NCBI GenBank assembly: GCA_910587065.1
Contig: CAJUMA010000001.1
Span: 82,221-146,220, forward strand
Source of the DNA: an uncultured Bacilli bacterium
GTDB lineage: Bacteria > Bacillota_I > Bacilli_A > RF39 > UBA660
DNA length: 64,000 bases
Direction of reading: 5' to 3'
Shown here: one piece after another, positions 7,117 to 45,412 of the stretch
How positions within the stretch are numbered: position 1 is the stretch's first letter
Layout of the letters: each line of letters begins with the position of its first letter
Notes under the pieces: generated by a model
Databases searched by the model: none
What the model saw: only the letters and a program-made list of their open reading frames with translations
Told to the model about the DNA's origin: nothing
Translations under genes and position numbers: made by a program

Positions 7117-7638
7117 TTAACGAGGATAACCAACATACATCATTCCTTTTCCTAAAATACCTCCAATACCATTCTTTCCATACTTAGTCTTACTAAGTAG
7201 TTCTTTTATGTCGATTTGTTTGTCTCTCTCTGTTAAAGAAATATTAACAGCGATAACTGCTGGATCTAAAGCATGAATATTTACTCTTTTAGGACTAGAT
7301 GCAAAATTTGCTCCACTTTTAATTAAATCTTCATAATCACTTTGACACGCTCCGGCAATAATCACGAGTTTCTCATGTGATTTTTCAAATTCACGAGCTT
7401 TTATAATTGTATCCCTAAAATATTTCGAATTTTTATAATTGTTAATATTAGACACATCGCCAGTTTTTGAATCATAAGCATCATGTCCAGTTATAACTAA
7501 AATATCTGGTCTTGTATCATTTAACAATTTAGTTATTTGATTTGGCATATCTGACTCTTGAATTTTTTTACCAATTGCTAAACAATCACATTCTTTATAA
7601 AAATCTAAAGACTTATTTAAATAATCTACATCACCATC
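7117..7638 (-). CDS. yabG: sporulation protease YabG (peptidase U57), C-terminal fragment of a gene split by an intervening element
   Basis: RPDILVITGHDAY...NYKNSKYFRDTI...LVIIAGACQSDYEDLIKSGANFASSPKRVNIHALDP matches the B. subtilis YabG C-terminal half. Homology continues 30 codons upstream of the first Met (DGDVDYLNKSLDFYKECDCLAIGKKIQESD) with no start codon, then ends at a TAA at the element boundary. Confidence 0.75.
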   Translation of the reverse strand, partial: DGDVDYLNKSLDFYKECDCLAIGKKIQESDMPNQITKLLNDTRPDILVITGHDAYDSKTGDVSNINNYKNSKYFRDTIIKAREFEKSHEKLVIIAGACQSDYEDLIKSGANFASSPKRVNIHALDPAVIAVNISLTERDKQIDIKELLSKTKYGKNGIGGILGKGMMYVGYPR

Positions 7639-7724
7639 TGCTGTCTTTTTTTATGTAACAATTTTTTTAAAAATAAAGATTTATTATACTTTTTATGCTA
7701 TAATAACTTAAAGAAGGTGTTAGT

Positions 7725-8714
7725 GTGACTAAAATAAAGGAGTTTGTCGAAGATAATAAGCCTATTGCTATACTTTCAATTCTTACATTTATCGCGTTTA
7801 TTATCGGAATTGTTATATGTTTTGGAACAGACAATAAACATATTAATAAAGAAAAAAAGGTATTAGAAGAAAATTCCTATACTATGTATTATAAAGAAGA
7901 TGCAATTGTTAAATTTACCTTTAGAGAAAGTTTTTATAAATGTGGGAATTCTGTTTGTAGTGAGTACACTGAAAGAATCTCTAACTTTGAACTAGTTAAT
8001 GAACAAGCAAAAAACTTATATTCTAATGTTAACATAAAAAATAAAGATCTTGATGAGGCTGTTGGTATTTTAATTAACGAAGCAAAAAACAAAAGCCATA
8101 TCGTTCAATCACTTCAATTAATAGGTGATTGGAAATCACGTTACAATGAAGAAGAATTTAAGATATTACTAAAAGATCATCTTACAGAAATTCCAAATTT
8201 CCCAATTGCTTTTGAATATCGAGAACAAGTAGATGACCAAACGGTGATGGAAACAATTGCTAAAAAAACTTATACTGTAACTTTTGATAGTAATTTTGGT
8301 TCACCTGTAGACCCTCAAATTATAACCGAAAACGAATTAGCTGTCGAACCACTTGCACCTACAAGAGAAGGATATGACTTTGTTAGATGGCAATTTAATA
8401 GCAGACCATACAGTTTTGAAACTCCTGTTACAAAAGATATAACTTTAAAAGCATCATGGAAGAAAAAACCAACAGTATCAACAATACAAACAACTACTAA
8501 AAAAACCACCACTGCAAAGCCCGCTGGTGATACTGAAAAACCAAATACGGGAGATAATAATAAACCTGAAACAGAAAATCCAAATAAGCCAGAGACTCCA
8601 AGTCCAGGTGACAATAATCCACCAACTGAACCTGAAAAGCCTGTTGAAAAGCCTGATGAGCCTAGTAAGCCTGATGATAATAAGGGTGAAGAAAACCAAG
8701 GAACAACTGAATAA
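7725..8714 (+). CDS. membrane-anchored protein with Listeria-Bacteroides repeat (Flg_new) domain and Pro/Thr-rich C-terminus
   Basis: GTG start with RBS GAAGGTG. N-terminal TM (IAILSILTFIAFIIGIVICFG). TYTVTFDSNFGSPVDPQIITENELAVEPLAPTREGYDFVRWQFNSRPYSFETPVTKDITLKASW fits the Flg_new/Listeria-Bacteroides repeat. PxxP-rich tail. Extended -10 TGcTATAAT upstream. Hairpin terminator at 8714-8738. Confidence 0.6.
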   Translation: MTKIKEFVEDNKPIAILSILTFIAFIIGIVICFGTDNKHINKEKKVLEENSYTMYYKEDAIVKFTFRESFYKCGNSVCSEYTERISNFELVNEQAKNLYSNVNIKNKDLDEAVGILINEAKNKSHIVQSLQLIGDWKSRYNEEEFKILLKDHLTEIPNFPIAFEYREQVDDQTVMETIAKKTYTVTFDSNFGSPVDPQIITENELAVEPLAPTREGYDFVRWQFNSRPYSFETPVTKDITLKASWKKKPTVSTIQTTTKKTTTAKPAGDTEKPNTGDNNKPETENPNKPETPSPGDNNPPTEPEKPVEKPDEPSKPDDNKGEENQGTTE

Positions 8715-8738
8715 AAGGACTAATAAGTCCTTTTTTTA
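8714..8738. terminator. bidirectional hairpin terminator
   Basis: AAGGACTAATAAGTCCTTTTTTT between convergent genes. Confidence 0.5.
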
Positions 8739-10139
8739 ATGAAAACTATACTTTACTATAATTTGTTCATCAATGTATATACTTTCAACAAGTTCTTTTT
8801 TAACTAACTTGTCTATAGAATTTTTATACAAGATATCAATATCATCCATCTTAAAGTTAGTAACATTATCAAACATTTTCAGCAAAGTCTTTTTCTTATT
8901 GTCTATTGATTTTTTTACTTTTTTAAAGTCTTGTTGTGTTATTTCACCACTATAATTCTTTATATAGGCTTCTTTTAATTTTAAATCATTAACTCTAATT
9001 TTTTCCCTAATACTATCTTTTATTGATTCTATATAACATTTGATTTTAGAAAAACAGTTGTTAATAACCATCCGTTTATCAACATCTGCAACTAAATTAC
9101 TAATATTTTCATCAATAGCTACTAATATTTTTTTTAAAATAATACTTTTTAAACATTTAGAACATTTAAAATAATACTCTAGTTTATTATTTTTATGCTT
9201 TTGATAGCATCTCATATAATTACCACACTTGTTACAAAATACTTTGTTCTCAAACATTACTTTTTCTTTTGCTTTTCTATAATTTTTGTATTTCTTTAAT
9301 CTATTATTAACTTGTAAAAATAACTCTTTATCAACAATAGATGGAAAGACATTTTCTATTATCTGATAATCACTTGGTCTAATATATTTTCTTTTTTTAT
9401 CCTTGTAATTATATTTATAAGACTTTCTAACAACTAAATCGCCCTTATACACGGGATTTTCAAGTATTCTACGAACTTTTCTATTATTCCATGTATTTGT
9501 AGCTGTTTTTTTGTTTTTCACCTTTAAATCATCTAATAATATGTTATTTAAATAAACAGCTATATAATTTAAACTATAACCATTAAAATTTAAATTAAAA
9601 ATGTCTTTTACGATACTTGCTTCATTTTCATTTATAGAAAGGGTTCTTAAACCATTAAAATAAAATATATCATAACCAAAAGGAGGATAAGGACCAATAA
9701 ATTCATGGTTCAAAGTTTTATTAATAGCTACATTTCTTCTTTTTAAAGAGGCTTCTTTCACATAGTAATCATTCATGATAGAGTGAATATTAACTAATAC
9801 CCTATTAGTTGTATCCTCATTATTAATAGAAATTAATAGAACATTATGTAACTTAAAATATTCATTTATATAATAACTAGATAAAAAAAGTTCTCTTCCA
9901 AGCCTTGATATATCCTTAACTATCACCGTGGAGATTAGTCCCAATTCTATATCTTTTTTTAATTTTAAAAATGCTTCCCTACTAAAATCAATCCCCGATA
10001 TACCATTATCAACATATATATCATCTAATTTTAAATTATTTGAATTACAATAATCTTTAATTAAACTTATTTGATTACCAATACTATTTCCATTATCTTT
10101 AACCGAAACACGAACATATCCCACAATAAACTTATTCAA
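8736..10139 (-). CDS. large serine recombinase (resolvase/invertase N-domain + recombinase domain + zinc ribbon)
   Basis: Catalytic-Ser motif GYVRVSVKDNG near the N-terminus. DISRLGRE motif. C-terminal Cys pairs CNKCGNYMRC...CSKC. Long coiled-coil tail. Probable TTG start at 10139 preceded by GGAG; the ATG-initiated ORF in the track reaches 10184 and overlaps the upstream gene. Confidence 0.85.
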   Translation of the reverse strand: MNKFIVGYVRVSVKDNGNSIGNQISLIKDYCNSNNLKLDDIYVDNGISGIDFSREAFLKLKKDIELGLISTVIVKDISRLGRELFLSSYYINEYFKLHNVLLISINNEDTTNRVLVNIHSIMNDYYVKEASLKRRNVAINKTLNHEFIGPYPPFGYDIFYFNGLRTLSINENEASIVKDIFNLNFNGYSLNYIAVYLNNILLDDLKVKNKKTATNTWNNRKVRRILENPVYKGDLVVRKSYKYNYKDKKRKYIRPSDYQIIENVFPSIVDKELFLQVNNRLKKYKNYRKAKEKVMFENKVFCNKCGNYMRCYQKHKNNKLEYYFKCSKCLKSIILKKILVAIDENISNLVADVDKRMVINNCFSKIKCYIESIKDSIREKIRVNDLKLKEAYIKNYSGEITQQDFKKVKKSIDNKKKTLLKMFDNVTNFKMDDIDILYKNSIDKLVKKELVESIYIDEQIIVKYSFH

Positions 10140-11634
10140 AATTACTCCTAAATTTATAAAAAATTCTAACCATCTTATGATCATCTATCGTAATCTTTGA
10201 TATCAATCTACCAATAACTTCTTTTTTTTGAATATTTAAACCTTCTTTTATAATTAGGTCGATCGTAGGCACATTGTTTTTAAATATACCCATCATTCGA
10301 CTTTTCTCATCATTAAAATATTCTAAGTCCGAGTTAAGTGAGTTATTTATAATCTCAAAATCGGATTCATCAACTATACCTTCTAATTTATCCTTATACA
10401 ATTGAATTTTCATAGCAGACAGCCTTTTTATTCTAGTATTTATATTATTTAAAACATATTCACGCTTTTCTTTAAAAGTAGCATTAAATATTTTTTTTAC
10501 CAAATTATTTATATCTATATTTTTCATTAACTCAGCCAAATTAGAAAAAAGAATATTATTTAATATTTCCTCTCTAAAATAATGCATTGAACACACATTA
10601 TCACGGTATTTTGCATATGTCCTACAACAATATATACTCGATGATTTTAGTCTCCTTACCAACATGGTTGACGAACACTCATTACAACATACAAACCCTT
10701 TAAGTAAATAATCATATTTTCTTCTTCTTACATGCCCACTTTTTGATAAACTATTGACCAAGTTAAATTGTTCTCTATTTATTATGGGCTGATGATTATT
10801 TTCGATTTTTATCCATTCATCTTCTTTTAACAATCTTTTTCTTTTCGATTTCAAACTAACTCTTTCATATTTTTTTTGAACAAGAGTACCAATATAAACA
10901 ACGTTTTTTAATATATAGCTAACTGTTGCTGGTTTCCAGATTGTACTAAAAAAGGTTTTATTTAAATCTCTATTATTATAAATATTAGGTGGCATTACTT
11001 TTTCATGAGTTAACTTCCTAGCAATTATTGTTGTACTCAAACCCGCTTCTTTCATTGAAAATATCCTTTTTACTATTGAAGACGCATAATCATCTATTTC
11101 TAATATTCGTGAATCTATTAAAGACCTTTTATAGCCATAAGGAACTGTACTTCCGAGAAAATATCCTTTACGCATCAAATCATGTCTTGATGACTTAATC
11201 TTTTTGGATATATCATTTAAATACATATCATTTAAAACAGCTTTAAATGGAATAATATCATCACTCAAAGTTGGAATTAAAGAATCATAATTATCAAGTA
11301 TTGCTATATATCTTATACTATTATCGGGAAAAAATTTATAAATATATTCTCCCGTTCCAATAAAATCTCTTCCAAGCCTTGATATATCCTTTGTTATTAC
11401 ACAGTTTACTAACTCATTTTTTATATCTAAAAGAAGTCTCTTAAATGAAGGCCTATCAAAATTTCCACCCGAATAGCCATCATCAATATAATAATCATAT
11501 ATTTGAATACCTTTATTCAAACAATAATCTCTAATTATATTTTTCTGATTAACTATACTTGTACTAACATTTTCTTCTTTACTCTCAGAAACAGATATTC
11601 TTACATAAACAGCCGCAATATACTTACTCTCCAT
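10132..11634 (-). CDS. large serine recombinase
   Basis: 500 aa. N-terminal AAVYVRISVSES catalytic-Ser motif, DISRLGRD, recombinase domain, CCNECSSTM...CC zinc ribbon/coiled coil. Directly upstream of and co-oriented with the second LSR. Confidence 0.85.
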   Translation of the reverse strand: MESKYIAAVYVRISVSESKEENVSTSIVNQKNIIRDYCLNKGIQIYDYYIDDGYSGGNFDRPSFKRLLLDIKNELVNCVITKDISRLGRDFIGTGEYIYKFFPDNSIRYIAILDNYDSLIPTLSDDIIPFKAVLNDMYLNDISKKIKSSRHDLMRKGYFLGSTVPYGYKRSLIDSRILEIDDYASSIVKRIFSMKEAGLSTTIIARKLTHEKVMPPNIYNNRDLNKTFFSTIWKPATVSYILKNVVYIGTLVQKKYERVSLKSKRKRLLKEDEWIKIENNHQPIINREQFNLVNSLSKSGHVRRRKYDYLLKGFVCCNECSSTMLVRRLKSSSIYCCRTYAKYRDNVCSMHYFREEILNNILFSNLAELMKNIDINNLVKKIFNATFKEKREYVLNNINTRIKRLSAMKIQLYKDKLEGIVDESDFEIINNSLNSDLEYFNDEKSRMMGIFKNNVPTIDLIIKEGLNIQKKEVIGRLISKITIDDHKMVRIFYKFRSNFE

Positions 11635-11752
11635 TTATTTCCTTTAATAGATTTTCTTTAATATAGTCTAATAAGATTTCTTCTATAAGCTCGCTTAAAC
11701 TAGGTCCAGTATCATCAAAAATAGTAATTACTTCATTTTCCTTATTCTTCAT
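11627..11752 (-). CDS. 42-aa ORF translationally coupled to the upstream LSR (possible directionality or regulatory factor)
   Basis: ATG...MKNKENEVITIFDDTGPSLSELIEEILLDYIKENLLKEINGE; its TAA overlaps the ATGGAGAGTAA start of the recombinase. Below the ORF-track size cut-off. Confidence 0.3.
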
Positions 11753-11834
11753 ACATATTCCCTCATAAATAATTTATGAAATAAATTATTTATAAGAACC
11801 AAAAAACCAGCTAGAGTATTCTAACTGGTTTATA

Positions 11835-14800
11835 TTATTTTTTTACATACAATCTTACTAAAATAGCTACGAAGAACAAGAATATTACTAAACAACCTAT
11901 AACAATCTTATAATTAATTCCAAATCTCGAAGTTTCATTATTTTCTTCATCTTGTGTTTCTGGAGCCTTTATTTCAATATGATCAGTTTTCGAAACTGCG
12001 CTAGTTGTTGTAGTTTTATCTTCTTCAGTTTTATTAGTAGTTGTTGTTTGTTTATTTTGACTGTTTGCAGTTGTTGTATTACCAATACCTTTATTAGGAT
12101 TATTAACAATTGTACTTCCGCCATTAATTGGTTTAGAATCAATTGTTGGAATACTTGGTTTTGGATCTACAGGTTCAACTGGTTTTTCTGGTTGAACTGG
12201 ATCAACTGGTTTTTCTGGTTTTTCTGGAACACTAGGATCCACAACGTCCTCGGTTATCCAACTCACAGTCGCTGTTGCAGTTCCTTTGTTTCCAGCCTTA
12301 TCTACAAACTCAAATGTAAATTTGCCATTCTTAGTAAATACATATGTGAACTTGCCATCATTATTTAGCACTGTTACATCTTCATTTGTTTTTAATGTAA
12401 CAATAATACTTTCATAAGTTGGTTTAGTTATTGAATAAGATATTTCTCCAACTGGAGCACTCTTATCTATCCAATCAACTATAGCAACCGCACTTCCTTT
12501 ATTTCCTGCTTTGTCCACAAACTCGAATACAAATTTGCCGTTCTTAGTAAATACATAAGTATTTAAGCCATTATTGTTTAATATTGACACTCCATCTTCA
12601 ATTACTAATGTTGCTGTTACATCTTTGTTTGTTAAATCCTTAACATTATATGTTACTTTGCCTATTGGAGCACTCTTATCAATCCAATTCACAATAGCTT
12701 CGGCAGTTCCTTTGTTTCCAGCTTTATCAACAAACTCAAACACAAATTTACCATTGTCTGTAAATACATAAGTAGTTAAACCGTTATTATTTAGTACTGT
12801 TACATCTTCATTTGTCTTTAATGTAGCAATAACTTGTCCATTTGTAATAGTAGTCAAACTATACTCAACTATTCCAACTGGAGCAACTTTATCAATCCAA
12901 TCCACTTTAGCTGTTATGGTTTCTCTGTTTCCATAAGCATCAGCTATTATAAAATCAAATTTTCCATTCTCCTTGAAAGTATAAGTATTTAAACCACCAT
13001 TATTTATGATTCTAACACCTTCACCTACTTCTAATGTTACTATTACATCTTTGTTTGTAGCAGAGGATTCGCTATAGACTAATTTACCAAACAGATTTGG
13101 GTTGACAATCCAATCCACTTTAGCTTTAACGCTTCCCTTATTTCCTGCTTTGTCCACAAACTCAAATGTAAATTCTCCATTTTGAGTAAATGTATATTTT
13201 AGTGAACCACCATTATTAGTTATTGTAACATCTTTATCAACACTTAATGTTGCTGTTACAGGACCTTCGGTTTTTTCACTTATGTCATATGTTATTTTTC
13301 CTTTTGGAGCAACCTTATCTATCCAGTTAACAGTTGCTACTGCAGTTCCTTTATTTCCTGCATTATCTACAAATTCAAATGTAAATTCGCCATTATTTGT
13401 AAATGTGTATGTTCTAGAACCATTATTATTAGTAATTGTAATTCCATCCCCAACATTTAATGTTGCTATTACATCTTTATTTGTTAAACTTGTAATATTA
13501 TAACTTATCGTTCCAACTGGAGCTTTCTTGTTTATCCAATCTACTTTTGCAGTTGCAGTTCCTTTGTTTCCAGCTACATCGACAAACTCAAAAGTGAATT
13601 CTCCGTTTTCACTAAACCTATATGTTTTTAATCCACCATTGTTTGTAACAGTTACCCCATCCGCAACGGTAAGGGTTGCTACTACATCCTTATTTGTTAG
13701 AATTGTTATATCATAACTTATCGTTCCAACTGGAGCATTCTTGTTTATCCAATCTACTTTTGCTGTTATACTTCCTGTATTTCCAGCTAAATCTCTAAAC
13801 TCAAAAGTGAATTCTCCATTTTCACTAAATACATATTTTGTTGAACCATTATTATTTGTTACTATTGTTTCTTCATTAGTAATTAATGTAACTTCAACAT
13901 TCTTATTTGTTATATCTTTTGTGCTATATACTAAAGAACCTTTAGGTGCAACTCTATCAATCCAATTAACTGTTGCTGTAGTTGTTCCTCTATTACCAGT
14001 GGCATCAACAAATTCAAACGTAAACGATCCATTATTATTAAATGTATATGTTTTAGAACCGTTATTATTTGTTACTGTTACGCCTGCTGCTACATTAAGT
14101 GTTGTAACAACATTTTTATTTGTTGGAGTTGTTATATCATAAGTTACATTTCCTGATGGAGCCTTCTTATTTATCCAAGTAACGTTTGCAGTTGCTCTTC
14201 CTGTATTTCCAGCTTCATCGACAAATTCAAATGTAAATTCGCCGTTTTCTGTAAATATATATGTTTTCTTACCATCATTATTTGTTACTGTTACTTCTTC
14301 GCTTGGAATTAATGTTACAATAACATCTTCATTTGTTATATCTCTTGTTCCATATTCAATTGTTCCAGTTGGAGCAATCTTATCTATCCAAGTAACAGAT
14401 GAATTAATTGTACCAGTATTTCCAACTTCATCAGTATATTCGAACACGAAAGTTCCATTTTCATTAAATGTATAAGTTTTACTTCCATTATTGTTTGTTA
14501 CTGTTATTTCTTTATCAGAAATTAATGTAGCAGTAACGGAAGTATTTGTCTTATTAGTAGTACTATATTCAATACTTACATGTGGAGCAACTTGACTACG
14601 ATCTTCATATAAGTTAATCATAGCTGCTGATGCAAATATATCATATGTATCAACTTCAAATTTTACATATTGTCCATATACGCTTTCATCAAATGTTATT
14701 TTTCTCATTTCATTATCTTGTGGACAATTCTCAATGCTTCCTGCTAAGTTCCAGTCTTCACCATCTAAACTTACAAATACTCGAGCATTTTTGATAAAGT

Positions 14801-17800
14801 CTGGGTCAACACTCCTATATTTCTTTTGAATAAATTCAAGAGCTGAAATATATCTTGGAGCATCTAATTTAATTGTAACAAATGGTTTTACAGTTTGAGT
14901 CAATACTGAATATCTAAAATCAGTATGCCATAAAGTGTTTGGATTTCCATCAATTACATTAGGAGCATAGAAAGGTCTAGAAGAATCAATTGATTGAGTA
15001 GAATAACCATGTATTGATAAATGCTTAATAGGAATATATTTTTCTGTATCAGGTTGATTATCTTCTGTAAATTCATACTCTAATACATTACTTGCAACTG
15101 AAGTTGAAGTTGCTTTATTTCTTAATTGAAGTACTCTATCACCAGTAACTACTGGCTCTACATCAGAATAAGATGTCCACTCAGTAGTATCTGAATATTT
15201 CCATTCAAGTTTCGACACATCACCTAAGGCAATAAGTCTATTTTCTAAATCATTAACATAAGGATCAAGCGTTAATTCATCTGCTTCCTTAATTTTTATA
15301 GAATATTCAGTTTCATCTCCACTTAATTTTATTTTTATTCCATTTTCTGGAGAAATTTTATTAAGAGTCTCTTTTGATAATTGTGCATTATTACCAGTAA
15401 CAGTAATCCATGTAGCACCACCATCAACTGAATATTTCCATTCATTAGTATAATCTGAATCATTTAAAACTATCTTACCAGCATTATTTCCATCAAATGA
15501 GAAACTTGCAACAACCTTAACTGTTTTATTCTCATAAAAGTTAAACATAGCACCTGCTATAAAACTCATACTTGCGCTTACAGCTTGAGTCTTTTTACCA
15601 ACAATTTTAATATATTGCCCTCTTACAGGTTCAAAATCAATTGTTTTTACAGAAACATCGTTTGTATTTCTATAAGTCCAATCTGTTTCAGCTGCTTCAG
15701 TATAGTTTATTCCATCCATACTAACTAATATTTGCGCTTTTTCAATTTTTCCATTACCACCAGCTAAAGGATAATAATCCATAGCAGTTATATTTTTTGG
15801 TTCATCTAATTTAATAACTATTTCTTTTTTTCTATCGCTACCATCCCAAGCTGAGTGCCAATTTGTATGTATATTACCATCTATAATATTTCTAGCATGT
15901 CGCCCTTGTCCTGTAGCTTCTGATGAAACACTATTAATAGAAAGATGAGAAATTGATATATATTTTCTAGTATCTGGTTGAACATTATTAGTAAAATGAT
16001 ATGTAACTGAATTTGTATCAGCTAAATACAACCCTGTTGCTCCAGCTTTAACAATTACATCTCTATCTCCAGATAAATCTGGTTCCTCATCTTTATAATA
16101 AGTCCAATCATCCGTTTCATTATATTTCCATAACATTGTTGGAACAGAAGCAATTAATTTATCCTCTAAATCGTTAGCATATAAATTTCTAGGTAATCCT
16201 GCAGAATTTAATATGTCGATTTTATATAAATTTTCTTCCGAATAATTTACTCCAACTATATGAATATAAATATCATTTTCTGCTGTTATACTAGCAATTT
16301 GTTCTTGAGTTAATTCAAGTTCATGAGCTTCTTCACCTGTGAATGAAACTTCATTCCAAGTATTCTTTCCATCTAAACTATAATCCCATCTAATTCCGCT
16401 TCCATCAAATCTCTTTGATAGGACAATTTTATTTGCTTTGTCTCCATCAAACGAGAATGTCGCTAAAGTAGAATCAAATTGACCTAAAAGATATGATGCT
16501 TCAACTCTAGTAACTCCAGGTTGTAATACATCTGTACCTTGATAATTCTTTGCTCTAGTTAATGTATCAGTAACTAATAAAGAATATTTAAATTGATAAG
16601 CATTTGATGTAAATTTAGGTTTTAGTAGGGAAGATAGTTGATAGAATGGCAAAGGATATTCTAAGAAACTATCACTTAATTCTTCAACTAAGTTGAAATA
16701 ATCTTCTTCAGTTTTAGTTGAATCATTATTGTATAATTCAATTAATTTATACCAAGCATCAACATTAAAATCTAACGCTGATATGGAAGCACGAAGATAT
16801 TCTTCATACTTGCTTGTATTATCCTTATAACTATTCGCTATCATTAGTAACTCACTAGATCTTTGATAATCAGCAAATCTATTTACGGCTTCTTGAGCCA
16901 TTACCATATAAGGAATTGTATAACCAGTTGCATATCTTCTATCATTTCCCCATCCAAGAAGCATTCTTTCACCCTTCTCAGATAAAGTCCATCCACTAAC
17001 ATCATTATCAATTCCCCAGTAACCTTGTCCATTTGTATTTTGTGAATAATATAAAAGTGCAGCATGTCCAGGTTGACCAATTACGGTTGCAGGAATACCA
17101 TGAGTAGCACGAATATTTGAACCAGACTTAGAGATACCTCCACAAACAGCACCTGTTCCAAATTTATTTCTAAAGTTCATCCACACTTTATAAAGTTTAT
17201 AATCGTTTGTTCCTCTAGTAACCTTGATAGTATATTCTGGACTGTCCTTTCCACCTGGAATGGTGTAAGTCAAATCCCATAATCCAATTTTCTCATCTGG
17301 ATTTTCTTTGTTTGGAACTGCAAATAATTCGTTGAAATAATCTTTGTTAGCTTCATCATAATATACACTATTTCCATAATTTGGCCATACATATGCCATA
17401 TATGGATGTGGTGTCAAAAGAGATCCAACACTACCAGGAGCTGCATCAATTCTTGATTGTACGTAATCATTAAGCCATAAAATTGATTCATCATCTATTA
17501 AGTTATTCATAACAAAACGCATTGTTTCAATTGGTAGCGACTCAAACATTGGTGTCATATCGACACTGTCTGTAGCCTTAAATCTACCATTTTTATGCAT
17601 AAACTTATAAATAGCATATCTAACTACTGCATCCGATTGATTTTCTGTCGAATTTTGCATCCATAATCTTACTGTTCCTGAATGAGTTAAAGAAAGTGAG
17701 AGAGCCATCTTTTTATAAAGATCTCCATAAGTTAGTGTGGCATCCCATTTATTATTAAGAAGTGTATTATTGCTAAAATCTTCTTTATAGTTATAATATA

Positions 17801-18791
17801 ATCTATTTAATTCTACTATAGATTTATAATAGCTTCCATCAGGTTTTCCACCCATAACATATAATCTCAAATTTTCTAAATCAGTCATTAACCATTTGAT
17901 TGTTTCATTATACGAAGAATTAAATGTTGCCATATTTTGCAATAAATCATATGTTGCATTATTAACAAAATCTCTTTGTAACACTATTAATTCTTGTTCA
18001 TTTGTTAAGTTAGATGATGGAAAATTTTTAATCATCTCATCATACTGCTCAACTGTTTTTATGTAATCCACTGTGTTTGAAGGCTCTTCATATCCAGCTT
18101 TTATAAGTTTTGCATCCGCTAAAACTGAATGATCATTACTTTCATTTCCACAATTTTGAATTACAAATTTAATGTATTTTACATCTTTAACAGGATATTT
18201 AAGGAAAAAAGCATCCCTATCTCCTTTAAATACCGCATTATTGTTGACTCTTTCTCTAAGAGTCCAAGTCTCGCCATCATCCGATGTGTGAATTTCGAAT
18301 CTAACACCATTACCTGCTGAGCCAACGCTTGCGTCAACTCCTAAATAAGCTGTTAGATAGTCATAGTCGTATCCACTAAGGTCATAAGCAACGGTTGCAT
18401 TTGCATGTGCTAAAATACCTTTCATAAACATTTTTCGTCTACCATCAACATTAACAGTAATTAACCCTCCGGATAAATTCTTGTCTAATTGAATCGTACT
18501 ATAAGATGTATATGATATTCCAGGCATATAAGGAATATCAGAAAGGTAAACCATATCCGTGGCGTTAGCTTTCGCTTGTGCATTAGTATCTTCAGCCTCT
18601 GTTGAATTTAAGTTAAATTGATTTTCAATCTCACTTTCATTAGCCAAAGTGCTTGTATTTCTATTCATTAGAACACTCATATTTGAGAGGCTAGGCCCCA
18701 GAGTTACAAGTGTTAAAAGTATTACAGATAATACAATCGTACTAATTATGTCGTGCTTATATCCTTTGGATCGTAAACACTTAAATTTCAT
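11835..18791 (-). CDS. giant (2318 aa) multidomain surface protein: signal/TM - NPCBM - transglutaminase-like core - 2x F5/8 type C (discoidin) - 11 tandem ~71-aa repeats - Pro/Thr stalk - C-terminal TM anchor
   Basis: N-terminal hydrophobic segment. Residues ~80-232 VYLSDIPYMPGISYTSY...GILAHANATVAYDLSGYDYDYLTAYLGVDASVGS...DHSVLADAKL match the NPCBM/NEW2 domain. Residues ~540-600 GTGAVCGGISKSGSNIRATHGIPATVIGQPGHAALLYY...GIDND match the transglutaminase core (Cys-His-Asp). IDGNIHTNWHSAWDG and IDGNPNTLWHTDF mark discoidin domains. Repeats VTVTNNNGSKTYTFxENGxFTFEFVDxAGNKGTAxAxVxWIDKxAPxGxIxY x11. PEKPEKPVDPVQPEKPVEP and a T-rich linker. C-terminal IVIGCLVIFLFFVAILVRLYVKK with no LPXTG. Confidence 0.85.
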   Translation of the reverse strand: MKFKCLRSKGYKHDIISTIVLSVILLTLVTLGPSLSNMSVLMNRNTSTLANESEIENQFNLNSTEAEDTNAQAKANATDMVYLSDIPYMPGISYTSYSTIQLDKNLSGGLITVNVDGRRKMFMKGILAHANATVAYDLSGYDYDYLTAYLGVDASVGSAGNGVRFEIHTSDDGETWTLRERVNNNAVFKGDRDAFFLKYPVKDVKYIKFVIQNCGNESNDHSVLADAKLIKAGYEEPSNTVDYIKTVEQYDEMIKNFPSSNLTNEQELIVLQRDFVNNATYDLLQNMATFNSSYNETIKWLMTDLENLRLYVMGGKPDGSYYKSIVELNRLYYNYKEDFSNNTLLNNKWDATLTYGDLYKKMALSLSLTHSGTVRLWMQNSTENQSDAVVRYAIYKFMHKNGRFKATDSVDMTPMFESLPIETMRFVMNNLIDDESILWLNDYVQSRIDAAPGSVGSLLTPHPYMAYVWPNYGNSVYYDEANKDYFNELFAVPNKENPDEKIGLWDLTYTIPGGKDSPEYTIKVTRGTNDYKLYKVWMNFRNKFGTGAVCGGISKSGSNIRATHGIPATVIGQPGHAALLYYSQNTNGQGYWGIDNDVSGWTLSEKGERMLLGWGNDRRYATGYTIPYMVMAQEAVNRFADYQRSSELLMIANSYKDNTSKYEEYLRASISALDFNVDAWYKLIELYNNDSTKTEEDYFNLVEELSDSFLEYPLPFYQLSSLLKPKFTSNAYQFKYSLLVTDTLTRAKNYQGTDVLQPGVTRVEASYLLGQFDSTLATFSFDGDKANKIVLSKRFDGSGIRWDYSLDGKNTWNEVSFTGEEAHELELTQEQIASITAENDIYIHIVGVNYSEENLYKIDILNSAGLPRNLYANDLEDKLIASVPTMLWKYNETDDWTYYKDEEPDLSGDRDVIVKAGATGLYLADTNSVTYHFTNNVQPDTRKYISISHLSINSVSSEATGQGRHARNIIDGNIHTNWHSAWDGSDRKKEIVIKLDEPKNITAMDYYPLAGGNGKIEKAQILVSMDGINYTEAAETDWTYRNTNDVSVKTIDFEPVRGQYIKIVGKKTQAVSASMSFIAGAMFNFYENKTVKVVASFSFDGNNAGKIVLNDSDYTNEWKYSVDGGATWITVTGNNAQLSKETLNKISPENGIKIKLSGDETEYSIKIKEADELTLDPYVNDLENRLIALGDVSKLEWKYSDTTEWTSYSDVEPVVTGDRVLQLRNKATSTSVASNVLEYEFTEDNQPDTEKYIPIKHLSIHGYSTQSIDSSRPFYAPNVIDGNPNTLWHTDFRYSVLTQTVKPFVTIKLDAPRYISALEFIQKKYRSVDPDFIKNARVFVSLDGEDWNLAGSIENCPQDNEMRKITFDESVYGQYVKFEVDTYDIFASAAMINLYEDRSQVAPHVSIEYSTTNKTNTSVTATLISDKEITVTNNNGSKTYTFNENGTFVFEYTDEVGNTGTINSSVTWIDKIAPTGTIEYGTRDITNEDVIVTLIPSEEVTVTNNDGKKTYIFTENGEFTFEFVDEAGNTGRATANVTWINKKAPSGNVTYDITTPTNKNVVTTLNVAAGVTVTNNNGSKTYTFNNNGSFTFEFVDATGNRGTTTATVNWIDRVAPKGSLVYSTKDITNKNVEVTLITNEETIVTNNNGSTKYVFSENGEFTFEFRDLAGNTGSITAKVDWINKNAPVGTISYDITILTNKDVVATLTVADGVTVTNNGGLKTYRFSENGEFTFEFVDVAGNKGTATAKVDWINKKAPVGTISYNITSLTNKDVIATLNVGDGITITNNNGSRTYTFTNNGEFTFEFVDNAGNKGTAVATVNWIDKVAPKGKITYDISEKTEGPVTATLSVDKDVTITNNGGSLKYTFTQNGEFTFEFVDKAGNKGSVKAKVDWIVNPNLFGKLVYSESSATNKDVIVTLEVGEGVRIINNGGLNTYTFKENGKFDFIIADAYGNRETITAKVDWIDKVAPVGIVEYSLTTITNGQVIATLKTNEDVTVLNNNGLTTYVFTDNGKFVFEFVDKAGNKGTAEAIVNWIDKSAPIGKVTYNVKDLTNKDVTATLVIEDGVSILNNNGLNTYVFTKNGKFVFEFVDKAGNKGSAVAIVDWIDKSAPVGEISYSITKPTYESIIVTLKTNEDVTVLNNDGKFTYVFTKNGKFTFEFVDKAGNKGTATATVSWITEDVVDPSVPEKPEKPVDPVQPEKPVEPVDPKPSIPTIDSKPINGGSTIVNNPNKGIGNTTTANSQNKQTTTTNKTEEDKTTTTSAVSKTDHIEIKAPETQDEENNETSRFGINYKIVIGCLVIFLFFVAILVRLYVKK
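12254..14594. repeat. 11 tandem ~213-bp coding repeats inside the giant protein gene
   Basis: Periodic near-identical protein units VTVTNNxGxKTYxF...WIDKxAP... The repeated DNA also produces the spurious antisense ORFs at 12574-14142 in the track. Confidence 0.8.
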
Positions 18792-19065
18792 TTCATAATC
18801 CCCCCATTTATCGAAATTTAGAGCATATTATAGCACATTTTTCGATAAATGCAAGTTTTTCCACTCTCCTTTCTTATAAATTATATTCATCTATATAAAA
18901 TAGTGACTAATTCTAAATTATCACTATTTTATACCAAATATTAAATTGTTTAAAAACTATTCTTTTTATCTATATATATTAAACCATATTTTAGCATTAA
19001 AGTAAATATTCACATGAGATTTAAAAGGTACAAATATATACATATTATTACATAAAAAAAGGCAG

Positions 19066-19312
19066 CATCAATATGAAGAATTTTACCAGGGAGATAAAAA
19101 TACTCATCTCGGTCCAATAATTCATTGCTTATTTCTGGACGATAATCATCAACTCTCTCAGCAATAGTCAAATCATCTAAATTAGCATCAGCATAAAGTC
19201 TCACATCAGCCCCCTTTAAGTAAGCTACATCATCTTTAATATCAACCACTATAAAAACAACATCATTGTTATAACTATTTCTAGTAACAATAGAGCCTTT
19301 TTCTATTTTCAT
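19066..19312 (-). CDS. yabG: sporulation protease YabG, N-terminal fragment (split gene)
   Basis: MKIEKGSIVTRNSYNNDVVFIVVDIKDDVAYLKGADVRLYADANLDDL...DEYFYLPGKILHID aligns with B. subtilis YabG residues 1-~115 (MQFQIGDMVARKSYQMDVLFRIIG...HMPGKVLHLD). Homology stops at HID; the remaining 16 codons of the tracked ORF (AAFFYVIICIYLYLLNLM*) are element-derived. Confidence 0.75.
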
Positions 19313-19353
19313 AAACCTCACCTATGGTATATTATGCCAAAAGAAAAAAGTGT

Positions 19354-35741: not shown

Positions 35742-38207
35742 CTATTCAGCAATCTCCTCTATAGATAAATCATTATTTTCTATTGTTTCATCTACTTTAT
35801 CTACGACACTTATTGTCGAAACAAATTGATTATCTTTCAAGTTAATTAATTTAACGCCCTGTGTTACACGTCCCAATTGAGAAATTTGATTGATAGGGAG
35901 TCTAATTAACATACCAGACTCTGTTATTATCATTAAATCTGCTTCATCTTTAACAACTTTATGTGCTACCAAAGCACCGTTCTTATCTGTTATACTTAAA
36001 GCTTTAACACCTTTGCTGCCACGTTTTGTCATTCTATATTCATTTACAAAAGTCTTCTTACCATATCCATTCTTAGTAACAACTAATATGTTATCATCAG
36101 ATTTTCCAACTTCCATTCCTGTACAATAGCCCGAATTATCCAAGTTAATTCCTCTAACTCCAGAAGCAGTTCTTCCCATTGGTCTTATCTCATTTTCATC
36201 AAATACGACCATTCTACCAGAAGTACTAGCTAAAATAATCTTCGAATCTCCATCTGTTAATTTAACATCTAATAATTCATCGTTTTCTCTCAAACTAATA
36301 GCAATCTTTCCGCTTGCTCTAATATTTTCAAATTCATCAACTAAAGTACGTTTTACAATACCATTTTTTGTTGCAAATGTTAAATATCTTCCGCCAGATT
36401 CTTTATTATACGAGACAATAGAATTAATTCTTTCATCTTTTTCAATCTGTAAAAGATTAATAATAGGTAATCCTTTAGCTTGTCTTGAATACTCTGGTAT
36501 TTCATAACCCTTAATTCTATATACTTTTCCTTTATTAGTAAAGAAATTTACATAATCATGAGTAGAACAGTTAATTAAATGTTTAACATAATCTTCCTCA
36601 TTAGTAGCCATTCCTTTAACCCCAACACCACCACGATGTTGAGATTTAAACGTACCAGAAACGCATCTTTTAATATAACCTTTATCCGTTATACTTATAA
36701 TAATATCCTCTTCTGGAATTAAAGATTCATCATCAATGAAATCTACTGCAGTCATATCAATATACGTGCGTCGTTCATCTGCATATTTATCCTTTATCTC
36801 ATTCAATTCCTCTTTGATAATGTTCAAAACTAATTGATCATCTGCTAATATTGCCTTATATTCTTCAATTTTCTTTAGCAATTCTTCTAATTCAGCTAAA
36901 ATTTTATCTTTTTCAAGAGCAGTTAAACGTCTTAAACGCATTTCAAGAATAGCTTCTGTTTGAATATCTGTAAGACCAAATCTGTCCATTAAAGTTTGTT
37001 TTGCTTGATCATCGCTTCTTGAATTACGGATAATTTGTACAACATCATCAATATTTTCAAGAGCAATTTTATATCCATTCAAAATATGAACTCTTTCCTC
37101 AGCTTTTCCTAAATCATATTTAGTACGTCTAATAATAATCTCTTTTTGATATTCAATGTATTTAGAAATAATTTCCTTAAGTCCCATTGTTCGAGGTTTT
37201 TGTTGATCTAACATAAGAAGATTAATACTAAAGTTTGTTTGTAATGATGTTTGTTTATATAAATTGTTTAAAACTACATTAGCATTAGCATCTTTCTTAA
37301 GTGTAATTACTATCTTTACGCCATTTTCTAGATTAGTTTCTTCATGTAAATCGGCTATTCCATCTAATAACTTATCACGAACAAGTTCTGCAATACGTTG
37401 TTGAAATAATTTCTTATTTACTTGATAGGGTAACTCAGTAATTACAATTAATTGATGTCCATTATGTTCTTCAATTGCCACTTTACCACGAATAGTAATA
37501 GTTCCTTTTCCCGTTTCATAAGCTCTTCTAATACCTGAGTTACCAAGTATTAAAGCTCCTGTAGGAAAGTCAGGTCCCTTAACATGTTCCATAAGTTCTT
37601 CAGTAGTTATATCATGATTATCAATATAAGCAATACAGCCATCTATAGTCTCTCCCAAATTATGAGGAGGAATATTTGTTGCCATACCAACAGCAATACC
37701 AACTGTTCCATTAACTAAAATATTTGGAAATCTACAAGGAAGAACTGTTGGTTCTGTTGTTGTATCATCAAAGTTAGGCACAAAATCAACTGTATCTTTC
37801 TTAATATCTCTTAATAATTCTAAAGATAATTTAGATAATCGTGCCTCAGTATAACGCATAGCTGCTGCACCATCTCCATCCATAGAACCAAAATTACCAT
37901 GACCATCAATCAATACATTTCTTATTGAAAAAGGCTGTGCCATACGAACCATAGCATCATATATTGATGAATCCCCATGAGGGTGATAATTACCCATAAC
38001 CTCTCCAACCGTTTTAGCACACTTTCTAAAAGGCTTATCAGGTGTGTAGCCATTTTCATACATAGAATATAAAATTCTTCTGTGAACAGGTTTTAAACCA
38101 TCTCTAAGATCAGGTAAAGCACGTGCTACAATTACGCTCATTGAATATTCAAGAAAAGAACCCTTAATTTCATCTACTATATTACGTCTTACTATATTTC
38201 CATCCAT
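35742..38207 (-). CDS. gyrA: DNA gyrase subunit A
   Basis: 821 aa. ...[30 protein letters not shown]..., active-site region AAAMRYTE, C-terminal beta-pinwheel repeats. Confidence 0.96.
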
Positions 38208-38217
38208 ACTTTACCTC

Positions 38218-41221
<3,004 letters not shown>

Positions 41222-41322
41222 TTTAACCCCCTTAATTTCAATTTTAAATGATTTTTAAGTTATTAGTGTACACCTATACCACATACTAATTATATCACAA
41301 TATAGATATTTAAAAAAGAATT

Positions 41323-41781: not shown

Positions 41782-41867
41782 GTTCCACCTCCGTTCTTGG
41801 GTGGATAGACTACCACAAGAAAAGAGAAAATTTTGTCGAAAAAAAGGAACTATATAAATAATTCCTT

Positions 41868-42989: not shown

Positions 42990-43137
42990 TTAAATTCCTT
43001 CTTTCTAATTTATTATTTATTATATTGTTATTATTATTAGGGTTGAAAAAGTTGATAACTTCATTTTCTCTAAATATTTCGGCTTTTTTTTCAAAACTTT
43101 TTAGATTTAATTGTTAAAAACTATCAACTTATTAACA

Positions 43138-44913: not shown

Positions 44914-45036
44914 ATGAAAAGAACTTATCAACCAAATAATCGTAAAAAAGCAAAAAAACATGGTTTCTTTGCACGTAAAAATACAAAAATATTAAAATCA
45001 AGAAGAGCTAAGGGACGTAAAGTACTTTGCAAATAA
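44914..45036 (+). CDS. rpmH: 50S ribosomal protein L34
   Basis: [40 protein letters not shown]; GGAGGTGGAG RBS. Followed by the hairpin AAGCCACAATGTGGCTTTTTT. Confidence 0.92.
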
Positions 45037-45083
45037 AGTAAGCCACAATGTGGCTTTTTTCTTACTTGTGAGGAGGAAACTAT

Positions 45084-45404: not shown

Positions 45405-45412
45405 GTGAATAT

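What the first reader, a model, noticed from the sequence alone, without database searches (positions are those of the whole stretch)
11835..18791. Element-borne 2318-aa surface protein with an unusual NPCBM + transglutaminase-like + 2x discoidin + repeat architecture
NPCBM and F5/8-type C domains are carbohydrate-binding modules that usually flank glycoside hydrolases. Here they flank a transglutaminase-like Cys-His-Asp core (GAVCGGISKSG...RATHGIPATVIGQPGHAALLYY...IDND, residues ~540-600). A ~780-residue stalk of 11 near-identical 71-aa repeats follows, then a Pro/Thr-rich linker and a C-terminal TM anchor with no LPXTG. This suggests a cell-surface glycan-targeted protease or cross-linker, or an adhesin. 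It is carried on an element predicted to excise only in the terminal mother cell.
Basis: partly seen in the sequence, partly recalled or inferred. Interest (0 to 1): 0.65.

Follow-up and report, generated by a model that had tools for sequence, protein, structure and literature searches.

The report
Surface glycan-binding protein, novel cysteine-hydrolase domain
A 2318-residue surface protein of an uncultured mouse-gut spore-former carries sugar-binding modules around a conserved, unannotated domain that looks like a very divergent transglutaminase/papain-type cysteine enzyme; this domain defines a large family in gut Firmicutes whose activity nobody has tested.

Summary
The ORF is real: window 11835-18791, minus strand, 2318 aa. 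Most of the described anatomy holds: signal/TM segment, NPCBM, two F5/8 type C domains, 11 x 71-aa Ig-like repeats, Pro/Thr linker, C-terminal TM anchor without LPXTG. It lies inside an 11,431-bp element with two large serine recombinases. Deleting that element in silico restores an intact yabG.

Two corrections. The repeats are only 41-73% identical. The conserved third catalytic candidate is Asn596, not an Asp.

The central 540 aa match no Pfam, NCBIfam or PDB sequence. AlphaFold models them confidently (pLDDT 92.8): Cys550 starts a helix, His576 starts a strand, and Asn596 follows the next strand. Cys, His and Asn are kept in 98%, 99.5% and 95% of about 200 diverse relatives.

The link to Transglut_core is collinear but sub-threshold. 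Pfam's best E-value in relatives is 0.044. hhalign gives P about 1e-4. The only PDB hit is the S. suis IgG protease IgdE (E 0.5). Foldseek finds nothing.

The architecture is not rare: at least 475 loci and 412 clusters at 50% identity, anchored by a TM helix or by dockerin next to a cohesin gene.

Best reading: a surface-displayed, glycan-guided cysteine hydrolase of host glycoproteins. The chemistry is unproven.

The parts
11835..18791 (-). CDS of the 2318-aa protein
   Evidence: The exact sequence is present in public mouse-gut assemblies. A cluster relative is named 'discoidin domain-containing protein [Bacilli bacterium]'.
18681..18755 (-). N-terminal hydrophobic segment (aa 13-37) after a basic n-region; likely signal peptide
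   Evidence: Hydropathy scan. Cleavage was not predicted with a dedicated tool.
18105..18551 (-). NPCBM/NEW2 (CBM51-type) carbohydrate-binding module, aa 81-229
   Evidence: Pfam PF08305, E 2e-22, 80 bits against a 23.9-bit cut-off. The family profile hits the NPCBM modules of GH98 2ygl and of 7js4 in PDB.
16473..18089 (-). Central ~540-aa domain (aa 235-773): helical N-part, Cys-His-Asn core, TPR-like C-part. No Pfam, NCBIfam or PDB sequence match.
   Evidence: no hits. AF2 pLDDT 92.8, pTM 0.92; 412 clusters with E<=1e-30; only TPR hits for the C-terminal part.
17142..17144 (-). Codon of Cys550, candidate nucleophile, in motif G-[AGS]-V-C-G-G-I-S-K
   Evidence: C in 197 of 201 relatives. First residue of helix 316-328 of the model. 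Aligned to the catalytic Cys of IgdE/4XZ7 and of 3ISR.
17064..17066 (-). Codon of His576 in the family signature Q-P-G-H-A-A
   Evidence: H in 200 of 201 relatives and Q573 in 199 of 201. First residue of strand 342-350. Falls on the Transglut_core His in the extended hhalign alignment (low confidence).
17004..17006 (-). Codon of Asn596, candidate third triad residue, in W-x-[IL]-x-N-[DN]-[VI]-S-G-W
   Evidence: N in 185 of 195 relatives and D in 6. Falls on the catalytic Asp of Transglut_core in the extended hhalign alignment (low confidence).
16182..16466 (-). First 'FSFDG' beta module (aa 776-870). It heads the first of two copies of a three-module unit that ends in a discoidin domain.
   Evidence: Internal duplication is visible in the sequence. 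Only weak CHB_HEX_C and DUF4073 hits. CHB_HEX_C is significant in 4 of 17 relatives.
15585..15929 (-). F5/8 type C (discoidin, CBM32-type) domain 1, aa 955-1069
   Evidence: Pfam PF00754; whole-protein E 4.6e-30.
14640..14969 (-). F5/8 type C domain 2, aa ~1275-1384
   Evidence: Pfam PF00754, E 2.1e-13 on fragment 1240-1400.
12249..14591 (-). 11 tandem 71-aa Ig-like repeats (aa 1401-2181), 41-73% identical to one another
   Evidence: Big_3_2 and Big_9 matches lie near the cut-off. The L001 orthologue has 13 copies and one cluster member has 10.
11925..12248 (-). Pro-rich then Thr/Asn-rich low-complexity linker (aa 2182-2289)
   Evidence: Sequence. An 18-bp tandem repeat lies at 12172-12227.
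11844..11924 (-). C-terminal transmembrane helix (aa 2290-2316); the last residues of the protein are basic (RLYVKK). No LPXTG-type motif.
   Evidence: Hydropathy. The same anchor type occurs in 57 of 144 family representatives, and only 2 have a sortase-like motif.
11804..11831 (-). Intrinsic-terminator-like hairpin (12-bp stem plus T-run) 4 nt after the stop codon
18827..18835 (-). Extended -10 element TGCTATAAT, about 36 nt upstream of the ATG. TTGCAT lies 16 nt upstream of it and a GGGGGG ribosome-binding site follows it.
   Evidence: Read from the sequence. Conserved in L001 and, more loosely, in L002. The consensus scan did not list it, and promoter-like matches in this AT-rich DNA are at chance level. 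This is inference only.
7635..19065 (-). 11,431-bp element that carries the gene and splits yabG. It has a 4-bp GATG at both junctions and imperfect inverted-repeat ends (CTGCCTTTTTTTATGTAA / TTACATAAAAAAAGACAG).
   Evidence: in-silico deletion restores a 258-aa YabG. The same element occurs in another species, L001.

Best explanation
The gene encodes a cell-surface enzyme of a gut Firmicute. An N-terminal signal sequence exports it. A C-terminal membrane helix holds it in the membrane. A stalk of about 780 aa (eleven Ig-like repeats) plus a Pro/Thr linker pushes the N-terminal head through the wall.

The head consists of one NPCBM (CBM51-type) module and two discoidin (CBM32-type) modules around a compact 540-aa domain. 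That domain is the only candidate catalytic unit. It has a helical N-part, then a Cys550-His576-Asn596 core, then TPR-like helices. The core has the topology and collinear motifs of the transglutaminase/papain-like (clan CA) fold.

The most likely mechanism is as follows. The sugar-binding modules dock the protein on galactose/GalNAc-rich host glycans such as mucins or immunoglobulins. The thiolate of Cys550, activated by His576 and oriented by Asn596, attacks an amide bond of the glycoprotein. This would be proteolysis, or less likely a PNGase-like or deamidating reaction.

Shown here: the domain content, the conservation of Cys/His/Asn, the secondary-structure placement, the surface-anchoring logic across the family, and the location on a yabG-splitting serine-recombinase element.

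Inferred: the fold assignment, catalysis, the substrate, and vegetative expression.
For: Modules:
- NPCBM and two F5/8 type C domains score above the curated cut-offs.

Central domain:
- It folds confidently as one unit (pLDDT 92.8, pTM 0.92). Cys is at the N-terminus of helix 316-328, His is at the start of strand 342-350, and Asn follows strand 356-360.
- Conservation in about 200 representatives that reach down to 25-40% identity: C 197/201, H 200/201, Q573 199/201, N 185/195.

Links to clan CA, all centred on the Cys helix and the GIPA strand:
- Pfam Transglut_core, E 0.044.
- The sole PDB profile hit is 4XZ7, E 0.51, with Cys on Cys302. 4XZ7 is the S. suis Transglut_core protein (PMC5612097, PMC10318531). 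Its Cys302 coincides with the AxC 300-302 catalytic motif of the IgG hinge protease IgdE, MEROPS C113 (PMC5066943).
- hhalign against real Transglut_core sequences gives P 1.3e-4 and 8.5e-4.
- The extended alignment puts C/H/W/N on C/H/W/D.

Family logic:
- The domain always travels with F5/8 (17/17) and usually with NPCBM (11/17).
- It is never fused to a glycoside-hydrolase domain, and is sometimes fused to Peptidase_M26_N.
- C-termini are either a TM anchor or a dockerin.
- 36 of 71 loci have a same-strand cohesin gene next door, and 43 of the 48 cohesin proteins have an N-terminal hydrophobic segment.

Source and transcription:
- Contigs carrying this gene come from mouse-gut metagenomes, and its relatives come from gut and unlabelled MAGs.
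- The gene has its own terminator and a conserved TGnTATAAT.
Against: - No HMM or structure search reaches significance for any known catalytic family. Pfam finds nothing for this protein at E<=10. Foldseek against PDB and BFVD gives no hit below E 0.1, only TPR matches.
- The third residue is Asn, not the Asp that defines Transglut_core.
- hhalign probabilities are only 24-54%.
- No biochemical data exist for any member.
- The many invariant aromatic and acidic residues in the helical part would fit a glycan-processing site as well as a peptidase site.
- A few relatives lack the Cys, so non-catalytic members exist.
Confidence: 0.45

Rival explanations
1. PNGase-like or other glyco-amidase or deamidase. 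The Cys-His-Asn core cleaves the amide between a glycan and Asn, or deamidates Gln/Asn, rather than a peptide bond. The CBMs and the aromatic-rich helical part hold the glycan.
For: Peptide:N-glycanases are Transglut_core members. 2F4M and 1X3W were retrieved with a Transglut_core consensus. In the mouse PNGase fragment shown there, Cys-to-His is 27 residues; here it is 26. From memory of yeast Png1, His-to-Asp is about 17, against 20 here. The helical subdomain has many invariant Trp, Tyr and acidic residues. The flanking CBM51/CBM32 modules are typical of glycan-processing enzymes.
Against: There is no significant similarity to PNGases. The best weak PDB link is to IgdE, a protease. The third residue is Asn, not Asp. 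No Zn-binding or XPC/Rad23-type features were looked for or seen.
Confidence: 0.17
2. True transglutaminase (cross-linker). The core forms Gln-Lys isopeptide bonds. It would cross-link the bacterium to host glycoproteins or cross-link its own surface layer.
For: The weak sequence links are to Transglut_core. That family includes real transglutaminases (PMC10318531).
Against: This assessment rests on general knowledge of the superfamily, not on a test here. Most bacterial Transglut_core-like proteins with known activity are hydrolases, and the papain-type Asn at the third position argues for hydrolysis. No acyl-acceptor site can be inferred.
Confidence: 0.08
3. Adhesin only. The central domain is a non-catalytic scaffold or binding module. 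The protein merely attaches the bacterium to host or dietary glycans through its CBMs on a long stalk.
For: Three lectin-like modules, Ig-like repeats and a membrane anchor form a classical adhesin layout. Relatives carry LRR_5, FIVAR and Flg_new adhesion modules. A few relatives have lost the Cys.
Against: Cys, His, Gln and Asn are 95-99.5% conserved across relatives of 25-40% identity. That is hard to explain without chemistry. The central domain is better conserved between species than the repeats and the C-terminal linker/anchor region: 88% against 80% and 57%.
Confidence: 0.15
4. Bacterial cell-envelope or spore-related enzyme. Because of its position in or next to yabG, the protein acts on the producer's own wall, cortex or coat. 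Examples would be a peptidoglycan endopeptidase like the pseudomurein endoisopeptidases, or a coat cross-linker working with YabG.
For: Family genes sit beside or inside yabG in several lineages: window, L001, L002, L003 and L076. YabG is a sporulation-specific protease that regulates spore-coat assembly (PMC10747680). Some transglutaminase-fold enzymes cut cell-wall isopeptide bonds (PMC10318531).
Against: Only 5 of 81 regions (the window plus 80 loci) are near yabG. Most other loci lie beside cohesin genes. CBM51 and CBM32 modules and gut-MAG sources point to host glycans. The upstream element looks sigma-A-like, not sigma-K or sigma-E (inference). The element would be lost from the mother-cell genome just when coat assembly proceeds.
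Confidence: 0.05

Closest known systems
IgdE of Streptococcus suis (MEROPS C113, clan CA; PDB 4XZ7), a Transglut_core-type secreted cysteine protease that cuts the IgG hinge
   Same: It is the only solved structure found by the family's core profile. The candidate Cys is aligned on its catalytic Cys302, together with the following helix and the G-[IL]-P-A strand. Both are exported proteins of Firmicutes that live on animal hosts. IgdE shows that this fold can be a highly specific host-glycoprotein protease (PMC5066943).
   Different: The match is E 0.51 over 37 residues. There is no detectable similarity outside the Cys helix. IgdE has no NPCBM or discoidin modules, no TPR-like C-part, no stalk and no membrane anchor. 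This protein's third residue is Asn.
Transglut_core (Pfam PF01841) bacterial 'transglutaminase-like putative cysteine proteases', e.g. PDB 3ISR and TgpA 6G49
   Same: The motifs are collinear: G-x-C at a helix start, G-I-P-A-x-x-V strand, H-A-x strand, and W-x-x-x-[D/N]. hhalign gives P 1.3e-4 and 8.5e-4. Cys-to-His is 26 residues and His-to-Asn 20.
   Different: The Pfam score is below the gathering threshold: no hit for this protein, and 14.5 bits against 23 in the best relative. The family has Asn instead of Asp and an invariant Q-P-G-H signature. The core is embedded in a 540-aa helical/TPR unit and does not fold when modelled alone.
Multimodular host-glycan enzymes of Clostridium perfringens and Streptococcus pneumoniae (GH98, GH84, GH89, M60-like Zmp proteases) with CBM51/CBM32 modules and cohesin-dockerin or wall anchoring
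   Same: The accessory-module logic is the same: NPCBM plus F5/8 type C around one catalytic unit. Relatives carry dockerin, with adjacent cohesin genes. Peptidase_M26_N occurs in 3 of 17 relatives.
   Different: The catalytic unit is neither a glycoside hydrolase nor a zinc peptidase. It is an unannotated Cys-His-Asn domain. The comparison with these enzymes' biology rests on general knowledge and was not tested here.
Sporulation-gene intervening elements (skin in sigK; the yin prophage in yabG of C. botulinum V73)
   Same: The gene sits in an insertion that splits a mother-cell sporulation gene. The insertion encodes large serine recombinases and has inverted-repeat ends. Precise deletion restores the ORF (PMC10747680).
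   Different: It is 11.4 kb with four sizeable genes, not a prophage. It has two recombinases, and its main cargo is this surface protein. Excision was not observed. The yin authors reported no other yabG-disrupting element in public genomes as of November 2023.

Membership tests
Transglut_core (PF01841) / transglutaminase-like superfamily | Match to the Pfam model at or above the gathering score (23 bits) | tested here: not met
   No hit for the whole protein, the central fragment or the core segment at E<=10. 3 of 49 relatives hit, best 14.5 bits, E 0.044.
Transglut_core (PF01841) / transglutaminase-like superfamily | Profile-profile or structural similarity to bona fide members | tested here: inconclusive
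Transglut_core (PF01841) / transglutaminase-like superfamily | Nucleophilic Cys at the N-terminus of a helix, His and the third residue on the following beta-strands, in the order Cys-His-Asp | tested here: met
   In the AF2 model (pLDDT 92.8), Cys is the first residue of helix 316-328, His is the first residue of strand 342-350, and Asn follows strand 356-360. Only order and secondary structure were checked. Distances could not be measured because no coordinates were available.
Transglut_core (PF01841) / transglutaminase-like superfamily | Third triad residue is Asp | tested here: not met
   The position aligned to the catalytic Asp is Asn596: N in 185 of 195 relatives, D in 6. Asn is the papain-type third residue.
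Transglut_core (PF01841) / transglutaminase-like superfamily | Catalytic residues conserved in homologues | tested here: met
   C 197/201, H 200/201, N 185/195 among representatives of clusters at 50% identity and hits from the first homologue search.
Transglut_core (PF01841) / transglutaminase-like superfamily | Thiol-dependent hydrolase or transferase activity | not testable with these tools
   Needs recombinant protein, C550A/H576A mutants and thiol-inhibitor sensitivity.
NPCBM/NEW2 (PF08305; CBM51-type) | Pfam match above the gathering score | tested here: met
   80.1 bits against 23.9, aa 81-229. The family profile hits the NPCBM module of GH98 (2ygl) at E 1e-11. Sugar specificity was not tested.
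F5/8 type C (PF00754; discoidin, CBM32-type) | Pfam match above the gathering score, two copies | tested here: met
   104.8 bits for the whole protein. The second copy alone scores 50.9 bits.
Sortase-anchored (LPXTG) surface proteins | LPXTG-type motif before the C-terminal hydrophobic segment and basic tail | tested here: not met
   The hydrophobic segment and RLYVKK tail are present, but no LPXTG, SPXTG or NPXTG motif lies in the last 60 aa.
Sporulation-gene intervening elements (skin/yin type) | Insertion inside a sporulation gene, bounded by att-like repeats, encoding a large serine recombinase; precise deletion restores the ORF | tested here: met
   There are 11,431 bp, a GATG core and 17/18 inverted-repeat ends. 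The restored 258-aa YabG is collinear with the intact YabG of L002 and L076.
Sporulation-gene intervening elements (skin/yin type) | Excision in the mother cell during sporulation | not testable with these tools
   All 20 contigs read that carry the identical KsgA show the integrated form. No attB or circular junction was looked for in reads.

The most novel reading that the evidence does not exclude
The 540-aa Cys-His-Asn domain founds a new catalytic family: a glycan-guided cysteine glycoprotease or glyco-amidase. Gut Firmicutes display it on their surface through a membrane anchor or through cohesin-dockerin pairs. It would be a third mechanistic class of mucin/immunoglobulin-processing enzyme, beside glycoside hydrolases and zinc O-glycoproteases. 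In this lineage it would also be mobile cargo of a yabG-targeting serine-recombinase element.
Probability: 0.3. Interest if true: 0.75.

Novelty: new variant of a known kind. Interest (0 to 1): 0.55.

Why it matters
If the central domain is an active, glycan-targeted cysteine hydrolase, it adds a whole enzyme family to the toolkit by which gut Firmicutes process host glycoproteins. The family has hundreds of sequence clusters and no database model. Today these proteins are annotated only as 'discoidin/NPCBM domain-containing protein'.

Such enzymes are also sought as reagents, as IgdE and the mucinases are.

The setting is a second point of interest. The gene is the main cargo of a compact yabG-splitting element. 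Such an element was reported only once before, as a prophage.

Tried and rejected
1. Direct Pfam, NCBIfam and PDB sequence searches of the central 540 aa found nothing.
2. Foldseek of the confident model against PDB and BFVD returned only TPR-type and chance hits. Menin, which has a transglutaminase-like thumb plus TPR, appeared at E about 0.6-1.3. I do not count this as evidence.
4. Modelling the core alone (aa 460-639) for a cleaner fold search gave pLDDT 54. I did not search with it.
5. A word-indexed homologue search with the core profile, meant to find bridging sequences carrying PF01841, returned only short fragments of the same family.
6. A regex hunt for Transglut_core proteins in the 1.37 Mb of fetched loci found none. 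I therefore took real Transglut_core sequences from PDB alignments and from a search seeded with 3ISR.
7. A glycoside-hydrolase reading was considered and rejected. No GH domain is fused in 17 large relatives, and the conserved residues form a Cys/His/Asn pattern.
8. The sigma-70 consensus scan is uninformative in this AT-rich DNA: 69 sites found against 80 expected.
9. I looked for strains with an empty yabG site using the exact KsgA sequence. All contigs read carried the element.
Full report
**1. Observation**

The ORF at 11835-18791 (minus strand) is real and encodes 2318 aa. Its parts are:

- A basic, hydrophobic N-terminus, aa 13-37.
- NPCBM, aa 81-229, E 2e-22.
- A 540-aa stretch, aa 235-773, with no match in Pfam, NCBIfam or PDB sequences.
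- Two copies of a three-module unit. Each has an 'FSFDG' beta module, a small beta module and an F5/8 type C domain. The F5/8 domains are at aa 955-1069 and about 1275-1384.
- Eleven tandem units of exactly 71 aa, aa 1401-2181, with Ig-like Big_3_2/Big_9 matches near the cut-off.
- A Pro- then Thr/Asn-rich linker.
- A C-terminal hydrophobic helix with a basic tail and no LPXTG-type motif.

The repeats are not near-identical. Pairwise identity is 41-73% (mean 55%) for protein and 52-75% for DNA. A strong hairpin terminator follows the stop codon.

**2. The element**

The gene lies between the two halves of yabG (Peptidase_U57). It shares that interval with two large serine recombinases and a Flg_new/RsgI-like membrane protein.

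- The junctions share GATG.
- The element ends are 17/18 inverted repeats.
- Deleting 7635-19065 (11,431 bp) restores a 258-aa YabG collinear with the intact YabG of L002 and L076.
- The same element, in the same gene order, splits yabG in another species, L001. There KsgA is only 65% identical.
- All 20 contigs read that carry the identical KsgA also carry the element. The three places shown come from mouse-gut (DRR014783/DRR014786) and unlabelled metagenome samples.

So 'element-borne' is confirmed. Excision in the mother cell remains an analogy to skin and to the yin prophage of C. botulinum. The yin authors knew of no other yabG-disrupting element (PMC10747680).

**3. The central domain**

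A search with aa 235-773 found 70 metagenomic relatives, at most 64% identical. Most have an N-terminal NPCBM.

An exhaustive profile search found 1298 representatives at E<=1e-3 and 412 at E<=1e-30. The listed proteins are about 460-4070 aa long. Part of the weaker tail is probably due to the NPCBM columns in the profile.

A scan of species-representative genomes confirmed at least 475 loci. The best 80 are all MAGs labelled Bacilli, Clostridia, 'Tenericutes' or Erysipelotrichaceae. Many come from mouse-gut catalogues.

The exact protein is in public assemblies. A cluster relative is named only 'discoidin domain-containing protein [Bacilli bacterium]'. The architecture is therefore common but unannotated.

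**4. Is it transglutaminase-like?**

AlphaFold2, given 23 sequences, models aa 235-773 as one compact unit (pLDDT 92.8, pTM 0.92).

- The N-terminal part is helical.
- Cys550 is the first residue of a helix.
- His576 is the first residue of a strand.
- Asn596 comes just after the next strand.
- TPR-like helices follow.

This order and placement is that of the papain/transglutaminase-like fold.

Conservation was counted over about 200 relatives aligned to a family HMM:

| Position | Count |
|---|---|
| Cys550 | 197/201 |
| His576 | 200/201 |
| Gln573 | 199/201 |
| Asn596 | 185/195 (Asp in 6) |
| Asp597 | 135 D, 45 N |
| Asp595 | variable |

The third residue is an Asn.

Sequence links to known families are weak but point one way.

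- Scanning 49 diverse core segments one by one, Transglut_core is the family hit most often (3 members). The best is E 0.044, 14.5 bits against a 23-bit cut-off, on profile positions 43-72, which is the Cys helix.
- A profile of the core finds one PDB sequence, 4XZ7, at E 0.51, with Cys aligned on Cys.
- 4XZ7 is the S. suis Transglut_core protein with catalytic Cys302 (PMC5612097, PMC10318531). Its Cys302 matches the AxC 300-302 catalytic motif of IgdE, the IgG hinge protease that founds MEROPS C113 (PMC5066943).
- hhalign against real Transglut_core sequences (3ISR, 6G49, 2F4M, 4XZ7 and FXIII fragments taken from PDB alignments) gives P 1.3e-4, probability 54%.
- hhalign against 120 PF01841 proteins gives P 8.5e-4.
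- With a permissive alignment, Cys, His, Trp and Asn fall on the Cys, His, Trp and Asp of the template. The confidence is low beyond the GIPA strand.

My conclusion is that this is a new, unmodelled family. It is probably a very divergent branch of the transglutaminase/papain-like superfamily. Membership in PF01841 itself is not met.

**5. What the family context says**

In 17 large relatives the domain always co-occurs with F5/8 type C and in 11 of them with NPCBM. Other partners are Ig-like, Flg_new, LRR_5 and FIVAR modules, dockerin, and Peptidase_M26_N (3 of 17). No glycoside-hydrolase domain is ever fused. The Cys-His-Asn domain is thus the only candidate catalytic unit.

C-termini are of two kinds:

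- A TM helix with a basic tail. This occurs in 57 of 144 representatives, and only 2 have a sortase-like motif.
- Dockerin repeats.

In 36 of 71 loci with a complete family gene, one or two same-strand neighbours are cohesin-domain proteins (48 proteins in all). 43 of the 48 have an N-terminal hydrophobic segment and 32 have a C-terminal one. The one example read by eye has LPYAG before that segment. Surface display is therefore a conserved property. In this window it is achieved by the protein's own anchor.

Upstream of the gene, a TGCTATAAT element and a GGGGGG ribosome-binding site are conserved in L001 and, more loosely, in L002. This suggests ordinary vegetative transcription. It is inference only, because promoter-like matches are at chance level in this DNA.

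**6. Mechanism and rivals**

The best-supported reading is a surface-anchored, lectin-guided cysteine hydrolase acting on host glycoproteins. IgdE is the nearest characterised analogue for the chemistry. The CBM51/CBM32-decorated enzymes of C. perfringens and S. pneumoniae are the analogue for the targeting logic; that second comparison rests on general knowledge.

The rivals are:

- A PNGase-like glyco-amidase. The Cys-His spacing is similar, and the helical part is rich in invariant aromatic residues.
- A true cross-linking transglutaminase.
- A purely adhesive protein.
- An envelope- or spore-directed enzyme, suggested by the recurrent neighbourhood of yabG.

None can be excluded without biochemistry. 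The near-invariance of Cys, His, Gln and Asn argues most strongly against the adhesin-only reading.

**7. Novelty and score**

The accessory modules and the kind of element are known. New here is a large, unmodelled Cys-His-Asn domain family that sits where a catalytic domain normally sits in host-glycan enzymes. I rate it a new variant of a known kind, with interest 0.55. The function is untested, and the fold assignment still needs a proper structural comparison.

Noticed in passing
window 7635-19065, with yabG halves at 19066-19321 and 7117-7634: A compact 11.4-kb element splits yabG. It is not a prophage. It carries two large serine recombinases, has a GATG core and has inverted-repeat ends. 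The only published yabG-disrupting element is the yin prophage of C. botulinum V73, and its authors found no other in public genomes (PMC10747680).
   Followed up: partly
L001:8739-21224; L002:8458-15532; L003:8092-13571; L076:6595-15001: The family gene keeps company with yabG in several species, but in different ways. In L001, and probably L003, it lies inside a split yabG. In L002 it lies directly downstream of an intact yabG. In L076 it lies between ksgA and an intact yabG. No explanation so far accounts for all three arrangements.
   Followed up: partly
window 11835-18791 against L001:9293-16672: The cargo gene is much less diverged between the two species than its surroundings. Protein identity is 82% (NPCBM 93%), against 65% for KsgA and 54%/44% for the element's own recombinases. 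Identity at four-fold degenerate sites is 0.62 (n=755), against about 0.40 in the flanking genes. Recent horizontal exchange of the cargo alone, or strong codon bias, could explain this.
   Followed up: partly
L001:9293-16672; cluster members P0248, P0236, P0245: The copy number of the 71-aa repeat varies. There are 13 copies in the L001 orthologue (2460 aa), 11 in the window and 10 in one member of the same 90% cluster (2246 aa). The 71-aa register is kept exactly throughout.
   Followed up: yes
36 of the 71 loci with a complete family gene among L001-L080, e.g. L068:8506-9288, L042:12932-13732: Dockerin-ended family members are encoded next to small cohesin-domain proteins with a signal sequence and often a C-terminal anchor. 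The one example read by eye has LPYAG before that anchor. This is a two-gene surface-display cassette in gut Clostridia MAGs.
   Followed up: partly
window 11624-11752 (-): A 42-aa ORF lies between the terminator of the big gene and the first recombinase, and overlaps that recombinase's start. It is called as a gene in public assemblies. It could be a candidate recombination directionality factor. This was not examined.
   Followed up: no
window 8736-10184 and 10132-11634 (-): The two tandem large serine recombinase genes overlap by 53 bp. Only the upstream one (500 aa) has the Zn-ribbon domain hit. The exact 482-aa sequence is not in the public protein collection, although its neighbours are.
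   Followed up: no
L028, L030, L060, L074, L078, L080 (serine recombinase ORFs 0.2-5 kb from the family gene): Large serine recombinase genes recur near family genes in other MAGs, where yabG is not nearby. This hints that the family is often carried as mobile cargo.
   Followed up: no
window 35742-46342: The window spans the replication origin region. It holds the dnaA-, dnaN-, recF-, gyrB- and gyrA-sized ORFs (452, 373, 366, 648 and 821 aa) on the minus strand, and the GC skew changes sign near 44000. Only DnaA and GyrA are named by a public source. The element lies about 25 kb from dnaA.
   Followed up: no
P0121, P0136, P0170, P0213 (family representatives): A few relatives have replaced the candidate nucleophile Cys by Ser, Thr, Ala or Asn, and some have also lost the His. 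They are probably inactive pseudo-enzyme members.
   Followed up: no
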